From Glaucostegus cemiculus (Eukaryota), in assembly GCA_976551045.1 (NCBI GenBank), contig CDPCPM010000370.1:1426001-1490000 (forward strand): a stretch of 64,000 nt of DNA. The letters run 5' to 3'. The translations under genes were made by a program, and so were the position numbers. Below the pieces are notes generated by a model, which had not been told where the DNA came from, searched no databases, and saw only the letters and a program-made list of their open reading frames with translations. Positions within the stretch are counted from its first letter, which is position 1; each line of letters opens with the position of its first letter. Shown one piece after another: positions 3,816 through 55,331 of this stretch.

Positions 3816-4421
3816 ATGCAAATTCAAATTATGTAAGTCTGCAACTCTCCCCAATTCGTGATCCTTGTATGTTTGCCGTTTTTTTAAAATAAGTAAATCT
3901 TGCTTTTCCATGCAAGCTAACCTGGGGATGGGATAAGTGGGTGCCAATGCGATTCCACGAATTAACACGTATTCAAAACCGTGACTGTGTTTCACTCAAA
4001 ATTCACGTATTCTTGCTCCACTTCACTAACTGAACACTTATCAAAAACAGAATGTATAAACTAGGTATGTTGTTTGTTACGGAAAAGAGTCCAATTTTTC
4101 CTATGTTCAGGATTGCAATAGTGTCCAACAATTTAAAAGCATCAATGCATTCAAAGGAACGAGGCTACACATTTTCCTGAGCAAATAAACACGAAATCAC
4201 ACGTGTCACAGACCCTGTGCATCTGAAGCACTTATCTCGAAGAAGAGTTTAATTCACGAATACATAAATGCAGTCGAATCACAAAACACTTTTCAAAACA
4301 ACATTACAATGGAATTGCACTGAAAACAACATTGAAACACAAGGACTTATTTCCAAAATAGCCCGAGAGATGGAGTAAAACCACAGTTGGTACAACTGTT
4401 CAATAAAGACCAGTTTCTTAC

Positions 4422-4463
4422 CGTCAGTCACCGTCACCATGGTGCCCCGTCCCCACTATGTGT
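4422..4463 (-). other. IGHJ: IgH joining segment of cluster A, short, with in-frame TAG before WGxG
   Basis: Minus strand reads ac aca TAG tgg gga cgg ggc acc atg gtg acg gtg act gac g|gtaag (WGRGTMVTVTD, phase-1 donor at 4421). Confidence 0.93.
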
Positions 4464-4502
4464 CACGGTGTTACATTCTATGGACTGCATCACACAATAA
4501 CA
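4464..4502 (+). other. 23-bp-spacer RSS of J (cluster A)
   Basis: CACGGTG (4464-4470), 23-nt spacer, ACAATAACA (4494-4502). Confidence 0.9.
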
Positions 4503-4829
4503 AGATTTGTAAACTGCAGGCAAAAACCTAGCATTGGTGTAAATGCACATATTTCAAAACGACTGTGAAACAGACATTGGTCTTTATAAACGAATAATAT
4601 GTTAAAATAGCGTTTCAACGGACACCAAATGCCATGATACTGTACATCAGACATGTTTGCAACGTTGCGATTATTGTTAATTTATTGGTAAATGATGAAT
4701 GACTCTTCGTGATGCATACGCTAAATTGTTCTGAGGCCGTGCTGGGCATAATTAGGACTTCACTATATAAGTAATTGGATCGTCATATAGATATTGACCC
4801 AAAAAAAAGTAATTGACGGCTGAGGAGTT

Positions 4830-4896
4830 ATTTTTTCTATTGAAGTGAACCGCTGTGCCATCCGTATGCACAGTGAGACAAGCCATGTCAAATACC
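4830..4896 (-). other. IGHD: IgH D2 segment (4858-4868, CATACGGATGG) with 12/12 RSSs
   Basis: V-side RSS on +: CACAGTG 4869-4875, 12 nt, TCAAATACC. J-side RSS on -: CACAGCG 4857-4851, 12 nt, AGAAAAAAT. Confidence 0.88.
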
Positions 4897-5209
4897 ACGC
4901 AGGTTTGTTTGATGCAGAATGGTGAGTTTGAATTCCACCTGCCCCTAAGAATCCTCATCCAGGCATCAGAGATCAGCTGACGGAGTACACCAGTGGCATA
5001 TATCGCTGTGCATTGCTCACTGACACATACGAAGCGAAATGTTGTTCCTTACAGGCACATATAAATCGACAAAAAATATGTGAAGTACGGATATAATTCG
5101 TTTTAACTGATCTATGTAACTCCAGATAATTAACATTTCTGCGAATCGCTTTCCTCAACCTTTCCTGCTGTGCGGGCAAGGTCAAGCAGGAGAAAACCAG
5201 TTGACGGTT

Positions 5210-5296
5210 TTTTTTTGTCCGGGGAGCTCTATGTTTGCTGCACCGTGTCTGATGTCCCACTGTCGTACCACAGTGAAGCAGAACCGAACAAAAACG
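5210..5296 (-). other. IGHD: IgH D1 segment (5248-5268, GTACGACAGTGGGACATCAGA) with 12/22 RSSs
   Basis: V-side RSS on +: CACAGTG 5269-5275, 12 nt, ACAAAAACG. J-side RSS on -: CACGGTG 5247-5241, 22 nt, ACAAAAAAA. This is the usual elasmobranch V-D1-D2-J layout. Confidence 0.88.
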
Positions 5297-5643
5297 ACAC
5301 AAACTGCTCAGGGTTATAGCTCAATTAAAATTGACATCACAGATGTTTCAAAATGATCCATCAGTTCATAACGAACATAGAAAATGAACACAAACCTCAT
5401 CACCTCTCTGAATATACCGTTCGTATTGAACAGGGCAAGGTATCCTGAGCTTGAATTGTAAATATAGGTGGTGGAAAACGGAAGGAAACGAACACATATC
5501 ATATCCGTGCACTGGATAGTATATGGAATGTCGTGTTAAGTTATTGAAAGGTGGTTTGTGCTCCGTTTTCAGAATGTTACCATTGTTTTAAATAATTACT
5601 CACTGTCAGTTTATGATTGAACGCTTTGGTCTTACCATCAAGC

Positions 5644-5682
5644 TATTCCTGTCCAGGTCCAGCCCCGCACTTTGTCATCGTG
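5644..5682 (-). other. Non-canonical 23-bp-spacer RSS of V (cluster A)
   Basis: CACGATG, 23 nt, ACAGGAATA directly after YYCGRY. Confidence 0.8.
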
Positions 5683-5987
5683 GTACCTCCCACAGTAATA
5701 GACAGCGGTGTCTTCAGACTTCAAGTCATTAATTTGCAGGGCGAAGATGCTGTTTGAAGTGTCTTTGGACGGAGTAAATCTGTTCTGGTATCCCGGGGCG
5801 AAGGTGTTGCTCGATGCACTTTTATATTCCATCATCCACTCCAGCCCCCGCCCGGGGACCTGGCGGACCCAGTTCATCCAGTTGTCATTAAGATCGAACC
5901 CGCTGGTTTTACACGTCAGTCTGATAGTGGATCCGGGTTTGGCGGTCTCTGCCTCAGGCTGAGTCAGCACAATATCAGAATGGACAC
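5683..5987 (-). CDS. IGHV: IgH variable exon of cluster A, intact, elasmobranch IgM VH type
   Basis: Acceptor tttcag|gt at 5988. [30 protein letters not shown]...[12 protein letters not shown]...RFTPSKD...[13 protein letters not shown], with both canonical Cys and the FR2 Trp present. Confidence 0.97.
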
Positions 5988-41172: not shown

Positions 41173-41309
41173 NNNNNNNNNNNNNNNNNNNNNNNNNNNN
41201 NNNNNNNNNNNNNNNNNNNNNNNNNNNNNNNNNNNNNNNNNNNNNNNNNNNNNNNNNNNNNNNNNNNNNNNNNNNNNNNNNNNNNNNNNNNNNNNNNNNN
41301 NNNNNNNNN
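41173..41309. other. Assembly gap (137 N) next to a CA-rich repeat
   Basis: Direct reading. Confidence 1.
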
Positions 41310-42054: not shown

Positions 42055-42452
42055 TCATTGACAAGAATTTAGAGTGTCCATCAGTACAAGAGAAACTTTG
42101 ACGAAGCTCGGTTTACCGCTGGACCGATTGACCGTTCTGGTGATGATCCTCATGGGCAGGGCTTCGTGTCCCACCACACAGGAGAATGAAGCGCCGCTGG
42201 CCCACTGCTCCTTCCCGATGGATAATAGACTGTACATGAAGTAGGGGCTGTTGCCCTTCTCCGCCAGCACTTCAGTGTTCCTGTATTTGTGCGAATCAAC
42301 GTGCTTGTGCTTGTCATCGACCGTCCATCTGACGAATATTCGGCGAGGGGAGAAACCTCTCACAAAGCAAGTGAGGGTTACGGTGGTCTTGGTGGAGACT
42401 TCATCTGTCGGCGGAAATAGGACAGAAACGGACGGTTCCCGCTGGAGTGGAT
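42055..42452 (-). CDS. IGHM: IgM Cmu4 exon plus secretory tailpiece, cluster B, open frame
   Basis: ttccgcag|at. [12 protein letters not shown]...[10 protein letters not shown]...W...[11 protein letters not shown]...[24 protein letters not shown]. Internal donor agc g|gtaaa after 42117 for splicing to TM1. Confidence 0.96.
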
Positions 42453-42719
42453 CTGCGGAAAAAATGAGAGATCGCCTGTAACACCTCGTCTGCCACATCT
42501 CCACATATCGCTCTCTGAAATTCTTGATTGGACCACTGTCACATTCTCTTGTCAATATCCACGAAATTACATTCTATCATTGCTCCGAGGGTGCAGTTTC
42601 TGGAACAACCACAGTGATTATCTGTGTGTTTCGTTCTGGAATATGAACTAAGCCTCTAAGAAGCTAACGTAAAAAAATACGTGCTGCTGGATATCTAAAA
42701 TAAAAAAGAAATATGAAAT

Positions 42720-46150: not shown

Positions 46151-46561
46151 CTTTTCCAACGACTAATCAATACTACCCCGAGAAATAACCTCCAGTAGTT
46201 TCGCCACCACTGACGTGAGCCAGTGGCAACATATTCTGCTTAATTCTTTTTTTCATCTTCTGAATTACCTCATTAACACATTTCACCGAACCTCCACGCA
46301 TCTTATCCCCATGGTAACCTTGATCTCACACTATTACCGACATTCAATTTGTCCTCTCCTTCAAATTCCCAACCTTCCGGCAACTTTCCCCGTTGTTTCC
46401 CTCTTCAACATACCTGACGAACACGTTTCCTTGAGCATTGCACACGAACTTCTTTCCACAGGTTTTGCCGAAGTTGCTCACCATTCTCAACTATTTGATT
46501 TTGTAAAACTAAAGAAAAGTGTAACCGTCCAACTCACTATACCCGGTCCACCAGCCCTCAC

Positions 46562-46870
46562 CTTTTTCATTGCGGATTAAAGCCCTCTTCGGAGTGGGCA
46601 TTTCATCGTGACTCACAACGCAATAAAACACATCCCCAATCAGCCAAGCTTTCGTCGAGATGTTCAGGTTGCTGATCACGCTGTCGAGAGCCTGTCCAGG
46701 CCGGAAGGTAATCTCTATTTTCAACTCCTTCATTCCTTTCATCCATGTTACTTGGACACCATAAGGTGCATGAGAGATGACGCAGGTTAAGGTCACGGTC
46801 GCCTCCAGTAAGACCTGTTCTAGTGGTGGTGGCTGAATTTTAATCTCTTCCTCTTCGCAATGGCGAACAT
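46562..46870 (-). CDS. IGHM: IgM Cmu3 exon, cluster B, intact (309 nt)
   Basis: tttcacag|at ... [30 protein letters not shown]...[24 protein letters not shown]...NEK g|gtgag. Confidence 0.95.
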
Positions 46871-47130
46871 CTGTGAAACATAAATGAAAATCAGGGCCGC
46901 TTCATCAACAGGAACAGAAATGGAGATGTTTCTTTTCGGCTCTAAATAGCATAGGATACATTCCTGGTATGGAGTGTTTGGTGTTTAACCACTTTCTCTC
47001 TCTGACCAAAGACTAACACCAAAGGTGGAAGGAGAAGCTGTGCCGTGGGTTGTCCTGCTGTCAGTGAACGTCTACCTTGTACTGTATTGGGCACTTATAG
47101 TGAGATATGAAACAGAAATGAGTCTCTTAC

Positions 47131-47440
47131 CTTGAGTGATGCTGATGTTTCGGCTTTGCATGTCCTCTTTATGAACGACCTGACAGGTGAAGACTGAACC
47201 TGCGAACCACTCTCCGGCTGCGAATGTTACCTGGCTTGTCGCGCAGAATCTCCCGTTCACCTCAAAGGAGGGATAAGTGACGACACCTGAATTCAGCGGC
47301 CGTCCATTCTTCAGCCAGTTTACAGTGAGTTGTGCTGGCCGGAATCGGCCATCGAACACACGGCTGTCCTTTCTTGCTCCTTTTTTCTTCCTCATGGGAA
47401 TTCACAGTGATGATGACGTTTGGAGGAAGCACCACTCGAT
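47131..47440 (-). pseudogene. IGHM: IgM Cmu2 exon, cluster B, with two 1-nt deletions
   Basis: 310 nt. DRVVLPPNVIITVNSHEEEKRSKK / TAVCSMAD / RPAQLTVNWLKNG...FTCQVVH...SRNISITQ occupy three different frames. Donor g|gtaag. Confidence 0.9.
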
Positions 47441-48376
47441 CTTGATGAAAATAAAGAATTAAAATTTCTCTTGAAATGCAACCGATTGTTAAGGAATAAA
47501 GCGATTTGTTTGCAGAGAATTCACTCCGGAAACAAAGAGAAAATTAATTGAACTTTCCTTTCCCTTAAAGTAACTTCTCTCCATTTCAGTTCAGTCATGC
47601 AGCTTGCAACTCACTTCACCGTCATGGACCTATGAAGCTGCAACGCAACTGTTGACCTACCAAGGTGCTTCAAAAAGTGCTGGTAAATGGATGTACTTTA
47701 GTTAAGTATTATATTGTCGGCATGGAAATGATGGGCCGAAGGTTCTCTTCGTTAACTGTACATCCCCCGGTTCATATAATTCTAAGGGTCCCTAGTAGCT
47801 CTTAATAAGGTAGTTTCAACGGCTCACTGTGTTGGCCAGATCATTGATCTGATTTATCGTTGGATGGATAGGATTCTCCCGAATTATTATGGATGTGTCT
47901 GTAATGATATTACACATGCTCACTTTTTGAACTTACTGCCAGAAAAAAAAACAAACAACATGTTTGCTCTTTATCAAACCCGGTCAGTGTCTTACACAAT
48001 TCATGGATCACTTCTCCTAAAATCGCAAGAATTGAGGTCAGTTACTAAATAATCCTGGGTCTCTTATCCATCTGCACTGGAATAAAATTTGACTGTTCTA
48101 TCTTCTATTTCCACTGCTTCTTTAAGGCACATGTCGTTATAACTGTGAACAATGTCCCAGATGCCATATTAATGTTCGCTGTGTGTCCTTCACTTTGCCA
48201 GTTATATGTAAATGACATCTGCGCGTGTTTCACTGAATGGTGTCAGCTCAATCTGCAATAAAAGAGGAAACTTAACGATGCATTAGGTCAAATACGAATA
48301 TTTTTCTTTCGAATTTGAGAAAACCCCACACTCTCTGCAAAACACGCGGCCTTTCTTGAAGTACCCAGACACTCAC

Positions 48377-48613
48377 CGGGCATTTGGACTTCGTTGACTG
48401 TGTCACCGGACTGAACCACACAGTAGATATCGCTGCTCTCCGTTGCTGACTTGCTGACTGTCAATTGGCTGCTGCGGGTGTAAATTCCCTTCCAGGAAAT
48501 AATGATGCCCGACGGAGAGTAGTCTATCGCCAAATATCCGAAGGTGACCGAGTCGGCGGGGCTGGGTTGCTCACAGGAGAGGAGAGGGTAGAGAGTGGGG
48601 GCCGCTGCTGCCG
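48377..48613 (-). pseudogene. IGHM: IgM Cmu1 exon, cluster B, in frame but internally deleted and lacking the B-strand Cys
   Basis: 237 nt. APTLYPLLSCEQPSPADSVTFGYLAIDYSP...SWK/GIYTRSSQLTV...IYCVVQ. Splice sites cttccag| and g|gtgagt are intact. Confidence 0.9.
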
Positions 48614-53900: not shown

Positions 53901-53996
53901 GCAAAACTGACGAACCTGAACGAATTTCTACAATTACCCGGAAAACAGAGTTAAATCCAAAATAGAACAGATGAAGAATAAGGACTCCTTCCTTAA

Positions 53997-54044
53997 CGTC
54001 GGTCACCGTCAGCTTGGTGCCCTCTCCCCGGTAGTCAAGGTAGT
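53997..54044 (-). pseudogene. IGHJ: IgH J segment of cluster B (Trp to Arg, splice donor lost)
   Basis: YLDYRGEGTKLTVTD followed by g|TTAAG instead of g|GTAAG. Confidence 0.92.
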
Positions 54045-54083
54045 CACAGTGTTACCTTCCACGGGCTGCGTCACACAATAACT
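54045..54083 (+). other. 23-bp-spacer RSS of J (cluster B)
   Basis: CACAGTG, 23 nt, ACAATAACT. Confidence 0.92.
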
Positions 54084-54381
54084 TGATCTGTAACGAACAG
54101 AAAGTAAAATATCCTGCCAAATTTCAAAATTCAAAATTAAGGAGAAGCCAGTATTGGCTGAAGGAAGCATTCCAAACGACATCAATTACGATGATGTGCT
54201 CTATCAGACAGGGCCATGAAATGTGACTTCAATAATTCTTATCGATAAATGATAACTTACCACCCATTACGCATACGAATTGTGCTGAGTTCGCCTGGGC
54301 ATAATTAGGACTTCGTTGCGTGAACAATTGGATTCATATTTTGCACTGTGACCCAGAAACACATAACTAGCAGCTGAACTT

Positions 54382-54458
54382 CTTTTTTGAATTCAGGCGA
54401 ACCGCTGTGCGATCCAGTACACTGGATCAGCACAGTGAAGCGGACCGGAACAAAAACT
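54382..54458 (-). other. IGHD: Single IgH D segment of cluster B (54410-54430) with 12/12 RSSs
   Basis: V-side RSS on +: CACAGTG 54431-54437, 12 nt, ACAAAAACT. J-side RSS on -: CACAGCG 54409-54403, 12 nt, TCAAAAAAG. Confidence 0.9.
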
Positions 54459-54782
54459 ATCCCTTCTGTTTGGGATCAGGCTTTACTCAAAATAAGCACC
54501 ATACAAGTATAGAAATGCTCCAAAGGTTCATAAATATCACTAAATGTGAACACAACCGCAATCTTCTCCCTGTATGCACCGCTTGCATTGAACCGAGAAT
54601 TTTATCCCATTCTGCCATTATAAAACATGTTGGTGTTACAGAGGAGAAAAGGGCAAAATATCACATCAGTGTTGATTTTTATTGTATGAACGTCAGTGCT
54701 CCCTTCTCAGTCGTTCATGCATTTTAAAATAAATATACTCACCTTCAATTTGTGATGGAAAATGATGGTATTACAATCATGA

Positions 54783-54821
54783 TATTCTTGTGCAGATCCA
54801 ACCATGGATCTGCTCACTGTG
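54783..54821 (-). other. 23-bp-spacer RSS of V (cluster B)
   Basis: CACAGTG, 23 nt, ACAAGAATA. Confidence 0.9.
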
Positions 54822-55124
54822 TTTCGCCCACAATAATAGACAGTGGTGTCTTCCGTTCTCAGGTTCTTCACGTCCACGGCGAAAATGTTGTTTAAACTGT
54901 CAGTAGACGGAGTAAATCTGTTCTGAATCTCCGGGGCGTAGTGCCCGTAAGAAGAACTGTGGTATACAAGCAGCCACTCCAGCCCCTTACCGGGGACCTG
55001 ACGAGCCAAGTGCATCCAGTAGTTGCTGAGAGAGAACCCGCTGGTTTTACAGGTCAGTCTCAGAGAGGCCCGGGTCTGCCGGTCTCGGCCTCCGGTTGAG
55101 TCAATCTGACATCAGAATGGACAC
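54822..55124 (-). pseudogene. IGHV: IgH variable exon of cluster B, frameshifted
   Basis: [15 protein letters not shown], then a 1-nt deletion near 55069 relative to the cluster A V, then [23 protein letters not shown]...YYCGR. The FR2 Trp is replaced by Leu. Confidence 0.93.
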
Positions 55125-55285: not shown

Positions 55286-55331
55286 GGGAAAAGAACGCCA
55301 AAAACAGGCTGTGTAAAGTCGCCGACCACAT
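55286..55331 (-). CDS. IGHV: IgH leader exon of cluster B (MWSATLHSLFLAFFS)
   Basis: ATG at 55331, 46 nt, donor c|gtaag. Confidence 0.9.

What the first reader, a model, noticed from the sequence alone, without database searches (positions are those of the whole stretch)
54382..54458. Single D of cluster B looks like a germline D1-D2 join (V-DD-J)
Seen: cluster A has two Ds about 380 nt apart, whereas cluster B has one, with normal V-D (about 390 nt) and D-J (about 365 nt) distances. Its V-side RSS (CACAGTG AAGCGGACCGGA ACAAAAACT) resembles that of cluster A D1 (CACAGTG AAGCAGAACCGA ACAAAAACG). Its J-side flank (GAACCGCTGTG, and CTGGGCATAATTAGGACTTC further on) matches cluster A D2. The D1-D2 interval and both inner RSSs are cleanly absent. 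Known: cartilaginous fish carry germline-joined Ig genes attributed to RAG activity in germ cells. Inference: this is a fixed D1-D2 coding joint with V and J left unjoined, which would be a fossil of the first recombination step.
Basis: partly seen in the sequence, partly recalled or inferred. Interest (0 to 1): 0.8.

Follow-up and report, generated by a model that had tools for sequence, protein, structure and literature searches.

The report
Pre-joined D segments, shark-type antibody gene
In a broken antibody gene of a cartilaginous fish, two small gene pieces that immune cells normally cut and join are already joined in the genome, a known kind of inherited recombination scar that recurs in many neighbouring genes.

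Summary
Observation confirmed. The 21-nt D of cluster B (54410-54430, minus strand) is a chimera: 11 nt of D1 plus 10 nt of D2, 5 nt lost, no N bases. Both outer 12-RSS are intact and the flanks are collinear with seven unjoined paralogs. This is what a RAG coding joint looks like. Cluster B is an IgM pseudogene. The join is not unique: 7 of 17 IgM clusters found are partly joined, 3 of them V-DD-J. Across both heavy-chain families all six partial states occur. So it is one random intermediate, not a fossil of a fixed first step; shark IgH joining has no strict order (PMC2435157). Germline status is inferred, not shown: the only runs (one sample) do not bridge the junction. Nine duplicated clusters of the second family share one junction, which shows that inherited joins exist in this genome. 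Germline D1-D2 fusion is published for nurse shark IgNAR type III. Unexplained: the junction holds an 8-bp perfect inverted repeat. Side find: a nine-copy V-D1 inversion that swaps RSSs (hybrid joints).

The parts
55286..55331 (-). Leader exon of cluster B (ATG to GT donor)
   Evidence: Read from sequence
54822..55124 (-). VH exon; 1-nt frameshift in FR1 near 55069-55071 (short G run, not covered by reads of this locus)
   Evidence: Pfam V-set
54783..54821 (-). V 23-RSS, unrearranged
54431..54458 (-). 12-RSS on the V side of the D, D1 type (identical to that of paralog L003)
54420..54430 (-). D1-derived half of the joined D (first 11 of 14 nt; breakpoint could lie up to 2 nt earlier)
54410..54419 (-). 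D2-derived half of the joined D (last 10 of 11-12 nt)
54411..54428 (.). 8-bp perfect inverted repeat with 2-nt spacer across the junction (unexplained)
54382..54409 (-). 12-RSS on the J side of the D, D2 type
54045..54083 (-). J 23-RSS, unrearranged
53997..54044 (-). JH; conserved Trp codon reads Arg (54028-54030) and splice donor reads TT instead of GT (53995-53996)
   Evidence: Trp-to-Arg site covered without difference by a contig of run X1
48377..48613 (-). C-mu1 exon (approximate ends); first Cys lost and 60-nt deletion at 48488
47117..47456 (-). C-mu2 exon (approximate ends); frameshift between 47370 and 47344
   Evidence: tblastn frame change; Pfam C1-set
46542..46859 (-). C-mu3 exon (approximate ends), open
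42058..42462 (-). C-mu4 plus secretory tailpiece (approximate start), open
5248..5268 (-). Cluster A D1 (reference; 21 nt, 7 nt longer than paralogs)
4858..4868 (-). Cluster A D2 (reference; 11 nt)

Best explanation
An ancestral two-D IgM minicluster (V23 - 12D1-22 - 12D2-12 - 23J) was cut by RAG1/2 in a germ-line or early embryonic cell at the D1 3' 22-RSS and the D2 5' 12-RSS. The interval of about 365 nt left as a signal-joint circle and was lost. The hairpin coding ends were opened, trimmed by 5 nt in all (best fit 3 from D1, 2 from D2) and ligated without N addition. The allele was inherited, leaving V23 - 12DD12 - 23J, which can still undergo the two remaining joins. The cluster is now a pseudogene, so the join is a neutral scar. 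Shown: chimeric D, breakpoints in coding ends, loss of inner RSS, no N needed, pseudogene lesions, unjoined state in the outgroups. Inferred: RAG as the enzyme, germ-line timing, order of join versus decay.
For: Breakpoints inside both coding ends, 11+10 nt, 0 N. A random deletion in the V-J span would land so with chance about 3e-4, or 2.5e-3 if confined between the outer heptamers. Substrate obeys the 12/23 rule: 9 of 10 unjoined IgM clusters show a D1 3' RSS with 22-23 spacer, L005's is damaged. Same geometry recurs in L002 (12 nt D1, 7-10 nt D2, 0-3 N) and L024 (9+12, 0 N). L024's sister L022 (100% support) keeps D1 free and has D2-J joined with 0 N, and the two sisters supply each other's reference segments. 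Outgroups A and L021 and 7 of 9 subfamily members are unjoined. Nine clusters of the second family, 98.8-99.9% identical, on 7 contigs with two contigs carrying two each, share one D2-J join (two differ by a base in D2) and one V-D1 inversion, so those joins preceded duplication. Germline joints with little TdT trace are the published pattern (PMC2193156, passages), whereas somatic joints show N/P additions (PMC2435157, passages).
Against: No read or second animal shows this junction: two runs of one sample cover the flanks but not 54377-54430. The duplication argument is made on other clusters, not on B. B and L002 are not resolved as sisters (AU p 0.074; 21 shared derived sites, background 5-43, true sisters 110-119), so a shared old join is not shown. 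Nurse shark thymocytes carry somatic V-DD-J and other partial states (PMC2435157), and no IgM cluster here is fully joined (0 of 17). The 8-bp inverted repeat is not reproduced by paralog D pairs (0 of 1944 simulated joins reach 8). The L024 halves score weakly on the B-subfamily profiles (p 0.06 and 0.02) and rest on the sister comparison.
Confidence: 0.8

Rival explanations
1. RAG hybrid joint at a cryptic RSS. D1 carries an internal heptamer that lies 23 nt from the D1 5' nonamer and points the same way as the D2 5' 12-RSS. Cutting there and joining that signal end to the D2 coding end deletes the same interval. Still germline RAG, but not a coding joint.
For: The best D1 breakpoint (nt 11) is exactly the edge of that heptamer; 6 of 9 unjoined D1s have CACTGT there with a 23 spacer. 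Hybrid-joint-type inversion exists in this genome and was reported in horn shark (PMC2193153, parts 1-2 of 3 read).
Against: A 3-nt trim is ordinary; the other two V-DD-J joins keep 12 and 9 nt of D1, so breakpoints scatter; a canonical 22/12 pair is available; B's own cryptic heptamer is imperfect.
Confidence: 0.07
2. Somatic V-DD-J from lymphocytes (T-lineage cells carry partial IgH joins) captured by the assembler, or a misassembly.
For: Partial states dominate in nurse shark thymocytes, V-DD-J among them (PMC2435157). Junction not bridged in the available runs. Source tissue unknown.
Against: No N bases; somatic joints differ between cells and should not form a consensus (inference); identical joins in duplicated clusters show inherited joins in this genome; the loose ends at the D in run X2 match paralogs L003 and L008, not an unjoined allele of B; a misassembly would not be expected to stop inside both coding ends three times.
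Confidence: 0.07
3. Coding joint with an unusually long P addition: D1 trimmed to 2 nt, and the next 9 nt are an inverted copy of D2 from an off-centre hairpin opening (or the left half was later made symmetric by template switching).
For: 8-bp perfect inverted repeat, one mismatch from a full palindrome; fold z -5.2 for the 81-nt stretch, part of it owed to the RSS; 0 of 81 same-trim paralog pairs reach even 6 bp.
Against: The left 11 nt already fit D1 in register (p 7e-4); a 10-nt D2 would be needed and the 10 free D2s listed are 11-12 nt; P additions of 9 nt are rare outside repair-deficient cells (recalled); the test was made after seeing the repeat.
Confidence: 0.03
4. RAG-independent deletion or unequal crossover between D1 and D2 (or their heptamers), or an ancestral single-D cluster.
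For: B has other deletions (about 21 nt in D-J, 60 nt in C-mu1). Up to 2 nt of ambiguity at the junction.
Against: Heptamer-to-heptamer crossover would leave a plain D2 (11-12 nt) or D1 (14 nt), not a 21-nt chimera; chance of both ends in coding ends 3e-4 to 2.5e-3; three such clusters; outgroups have two Ds.
Confidence: 0.03

Closest known systems
Nurse shark IgNAR type III cluster with germline D1-D2 fusion (PMC4622739, passages)
   Same: D1 and D2 fused in the germline, V and J left free, one rearrangement fewer.
   Different: IgNAR has three Ds and the cluster is expressed in neonates; here a two-D IgM cluster becomes single-D and is a pseudogene.
Partly or fully germline-joined IgH clusters of horn shark and little skate (PMC2193153, parts 1-2 of 3; PMC5192425 and PMC4279169, passages)
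   Same: Cluster-type IgM with some segments pre-joined, attributed to RAG in germ cells.
   Different: The reviews list VD-J, VD-DJ and VDJ. PMC2193153 prints 'V DD-J', which I read as VDD-J; if it means V-DD-J, this exact state is already in print. The primary paper (Kokubu 1988) was not held.
Nurse shark NS4 germline-joined light chains (PMC2193156, passages)
   Same: RSS fully excised, small trims, little TdT trace, several independent events.
   Different: V-J joins in a light chain, tested in several animals, some expressed in pups.
Somatic 1R intermediate V-DD-J of nurse shark thymocytes (PMC2435157, passages)
   Same: Same configuration.
   Different: Somatic, unique per cell, with N/P additions; absent from red-cell DNA.

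Membership tests
Germline-joined Ig segments (RAG-type coding joint) | Inner RSS and interval completely excised | tested here: met
Germline-joined Ig segments (RAG-type coding joint) | Breakpoints in coding ends with small nucleotide loss | tested here: met
   11 of 14 nt D1 and 10 of 11-12 nt D2
Germline-joined Ig segments (RAG-type coding joint) | Ancestral substrate obeys the 12/23 rule | tested here: met
   22-RSS and 12-RSS face each other in unjoined paralogs
Germline-joined Ig segments (RAG-type coding joint) | Joined form derived from split form | tested here: met
   Outgroups and 7 of 9 subfamily members unjoined
Germline-joined Ig segments (RAG-type coding joint) | Little or no N addition | tested here: met
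   Best model 0 N
Germline-joined Ig segments (RAG-type coding joint) | Present in non-lymphoid DNA of several animals | tested here: inconclusive
   Two runs, one sample, junction not bridged
Germline-joined Ig segments (RAG-type coding joint) | Made by RAG in germ cells | not testable with these tools
   Inferred from junction form and literature
Elasmobranch-type IgM minicluster | Leader-V-D-J followed by four C1-set exons and a mu-type tailpiece | tested here: met
Functional IgM minicluster | Open V, WGxG J with GT donor, intact C exons | tested here: not met
   V frameshift, Trp-to-Arg, TT donor, C-mu1 Cys loss and 60-nt deletion, C-mu2 frameshift
RAG hybrid joint | Precise signal end joined to a coding end | tested here: inconclusive
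   Breakpoint coincides with a cryptic heptamer edge but equals a 3-nt trim

The most novel reading that the evidence does not exclude
This genome keeps a full germline record of shark V(D)J recombination: all six partial states plus full joins, at least two and probably three independent IgM V-DD-J events, and a nine-copy hybrid-joint inversion that swapped RSSs. One D1-D2 join converts the shark two-D cluster into V23-12D12-23J, the single-D layout of bony-vertebrate IgH (layout recalled). L002 has an open V and intact J and may still rearrange and be expressed, giving a living test of how germline RAG activity remodels locus architecture. B's palindromic junction might also record abnormal hairpin opening in germ cells.
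Probability: 0.3. Interest if true: 0.6.

Novelty: new member of a known kind. Interest (0 to 1): 0.35.

Why it matters
For B alone, little: a neutral scar in a pseudogene, of a kind known since 1988. As a set, the clusters let one count which RSS pairs RAG uses in the germ line and compare that with somatic frequencies, measure trimming and N addition at inherited joints, and ask whether a pre-joined D (L002, L024) narrows the CDR3 repertoire. Germline V-DD-J in IgM was not found as an explicit entry in the papers searched, but the library lacks most of the primary shark literature.

Tried and rejected
Reads: no RNA holder listed. Contigs of X1 and X2 (one sample, possibly the assembly's own) cover the flanks, mostly without difference, but leave 54377-54430 uncovered, so no verdict on germline status. 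Sister relation of B and L002: interval trees and a 5367-column tree leave it open and shared derived sites show no excess, also not near the D; a single old join or gene conversion is neither shown nor excluded. Re-integrated excision circle: the D1-D2 interval gave 8 hits of 8 candidates, all inside two-D clusters, no orphan copy; diverged clusters such as A were missed, so sensitivity is limited. Degenerate second D or leftover 22-RSS near B: none. Earlier findings of the scan: none. Somatic junction table of PMC2435157 (supplement.doc) could not be read; it bears on how unusual 0 N is. PMC2191167 held only abstract and references; PMC12227049 and PMC12907318 passages added nothing on this state. 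Loci L060-L067 were fetched but not analysed; L019 and L059 gave no V end; L026-L031 are V segments without D or J nearby and were left out of the counts.

Full report
Setting. The window is G000:C370:1426001-1490000. It holds the V-D-D-J part of cluster A and all of cluster B on the minus strand. B has a leader, V, one D, J and four C1-set exons ending in a mu-type tailpiece, so it is an IgM minicluster of the cartilaginous-fish type.

Observation. The D is the 21-nt minus-strand sequence CTGATCCAGTGTACTGGATCG at 54410-54430. A search of the genome with 54044-54822 gave 19 matches, all on C370; seven close paralogs match in two pieces about 380 nt apart and one (L002) matches in one piece. 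In the multiple alignment B and L002 follow the paralogs up to the D1 5' heptamer and resume at the D2 coding end; the D1 3' 22-RSS, the interval and the D2 5' 12-RSS are gone. No leftover 22-RSS lies in 9.9 kb around B.

Junction. With profiles from 9 unjoined clusters the best model for B is 11 nt of D1, 10 nt of D2 and no N (20.9 bits against 9.6 for D1 alone and 11.4 for D2 alone; null p 7e-4 and 8e-5). The split point can move by up to 2 nt but 5 nt are lost in any case. A heptamer-to-heptamer crossover would leave 11-14 nt of one D, not this chimera. A random deletion would place both ends in the coding ends with chance 3e-4 to 2.5e-3. This is the published signature of germline V(D)J joining: RSS excised, small trims, little TdT trace (PMC2193156, passages).

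Census. C-mu4 gave 17 hits at 71-100% identity, all on C370, then a gap to 43% (150 of 486 candidates scored); each pairs with a V found (150 of 518 scored). Of these 17 IgM clusters 10 are unjoined, 3 are V-DD-J (B, L002, L024), 1 is VD-D-J (L017), 1 is V-D-DJ (L022), 2 are VD-DJ (L020, L023) and none is fully joined. Of 34 loci of a second heavy-chain family (probably IgW; isotype not tested), 8 are unjoined, 9 carry an extra D by duplication, 9 have an inverted V-D1 interval with D2-J joined, 1 is VD-D-J, 2 VDD-J, 1 VD-DJ, 1 V-DDJ, 2 VDDJ, and 1 gave no V end. All six partial states are therefore present. Malecek et al. found all of them somatically and no strict order (PMC2435157, passages). 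'Fossil of the first step' should read 'fossil of one single-join intermediate'.

How many events. L024 belongs to another subfamily; its sister L022 (100% support in the V and V-D trees) has a free D1 and a D2-J join, so the L024 join is independent of B. L024 is 9 nt of the sister's D1 (one mismatch) plus a 12-nt D2, and L022 is the first 9 nt of that D2 plus the full J, both without N. B and L002 are 84% identical, sit in an unresolved radiation (AU p 0.074 for holding them together), share no excess of derived sites and have different junctions (21 and 22 nt). Two events are more likely than one, but this is not settled.

Germline or somatic. The direct test failed: two runs of one sample cover both flanks but not 54377-54430, and their loose ends at the D belong to paralogs L003 and L008. 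Indirect support: no N; and nine duplicated clusters, 98.8-99.9% identical, two pairs lying on one contig each, share one D2-J join and one inversion, which a somatic event cannot give. Some of the nine may be haplotype copies. Against: partial states are typical of thymocytes, and the source tissue is unknown. I put the somatic or artefact reading at about 7%.

Function. B cannot make IgM: V frameshift (in a short G run, unconfirmed by reads), J Trp-to-Arg (covered by an X1 contig without difference), J donor TT, loss of the first C-mu1 Cys, a 60-nt C-mu1 deletion and a C-mu2 frameshift. Its four RSS remain about as good as those of unjoined paralogs. L002 has an open V and an intact J and donor; L024 has an open V with a changed FR2 Trp and an intact J; their C regions were not checked in full.

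Loose ends. The D1 breakpoint of B coincides with the edge of a cryptic heptamer that has a 23 spacer to the D1 5' nonamer (6 of 9 unjoined D1s), so a deletional hybrid joint cannot be excluded; L002 and L024 break elsewhere. The junction also carries an 8-bp perfect inverted repeat that paralog D pairs do not reproduce (0 of 81 reach 6 bp at the same trim; 0 of 1944 reach 8; fold). Chance, later template switching and a long P addition remain open; the test was made after the repeat was seen.

What is known. Germline-joined IgH clusters are long known (PMC2193153, parts 1-2 of 3; PMC5192425 and PMC4279169, passages). D1-D2 fusion with free V and J is published for nurse shark IgNAR type III (PMC4622739, passages). 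A search for 'V-DD-J' with 'germline' and 'shark' gave one paper, on somatic products; other searches gave no explicit germline IgM V-DD-J, but one review's 'V DD-J' is ambiguous and the primary paper was not held.

Verdict. Real, correctly read as a D1-D2 join, probably germline, a new member of a known kind, in a dead cluster. Interest 0.35, most of it from the census and the amplified inversion rather than from B itself.

Noticed in passing
L073-L081 (C97 x2, C117 x2, C868, C628, C900, C969, C615): The whole V-D1 interval with both RSS is inverted, so V now abuts a 12-RSS and D1 a 23-RSS (hybrid-joint pattern); D2-J is joined with a shared junction; D1 3' heptamer is doubled. Nine copies, 98.8-99.9% identical. 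Resembles the D1-D2 inversion described for horn shark.
   Followed up: partly
L054-L058, L082, L085-L087: Nine second-family clusters carry a tandem copy of the V-D1 and D1-D2 intervals, giving an extra D; in L056 the second D looks like a further D1-D2 join. J not reached in 8 of 9.
   Followed up: partly
L002 (C370:984773-985583) and L024 (C370 near 380000-381800): Two more V-DD-J IgM clusters; L002 has open V, intact J and donor and may be functional.
   Followed up: partly
L017, L020, L022, L023, L036-L039, L071, L083, L084: Other germline-type joins: VD-D-J, V-D-DJ, VD-DJ, VDD-J, V-DDJ and two full VDDJ; some junctions fit P nucleotides at untrimmed ends. L071's D2-J junction resembles that of the nine-copy group.
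   Followed up: partly
window 4420-5700 (cluster A): Cluster A looks weakened: degenerate V RSS, D1 7 nt longer than paralogs, J shortened with a stop just before the WG motif in the J frame.
   Followed up: no
L005 D1 3' RSS: Heptamer changed and spacer shortened, so D1-D2 joining in this cluster is probably dead.
   Followed up: no
D1 of 6 of 9 unjoined IgM clusters: An internal heptamer shares the D1 5' nonamer with a 23 spacer, so that RSS could read as 12 or 23.
   Followed up: partly
L026-L031 (C370): V segments with 23-RSS (5 of 6) but no D or J within about 2 kb, lying among the IgM clusters; possibly TCR-delta-associated V segments (label recalled, not tested).
   Followed up: no
window 41173-41309: A 137-nt run of N downstream of C-mu4; transmembrane exons of B were not looked for.
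   Followed up: no
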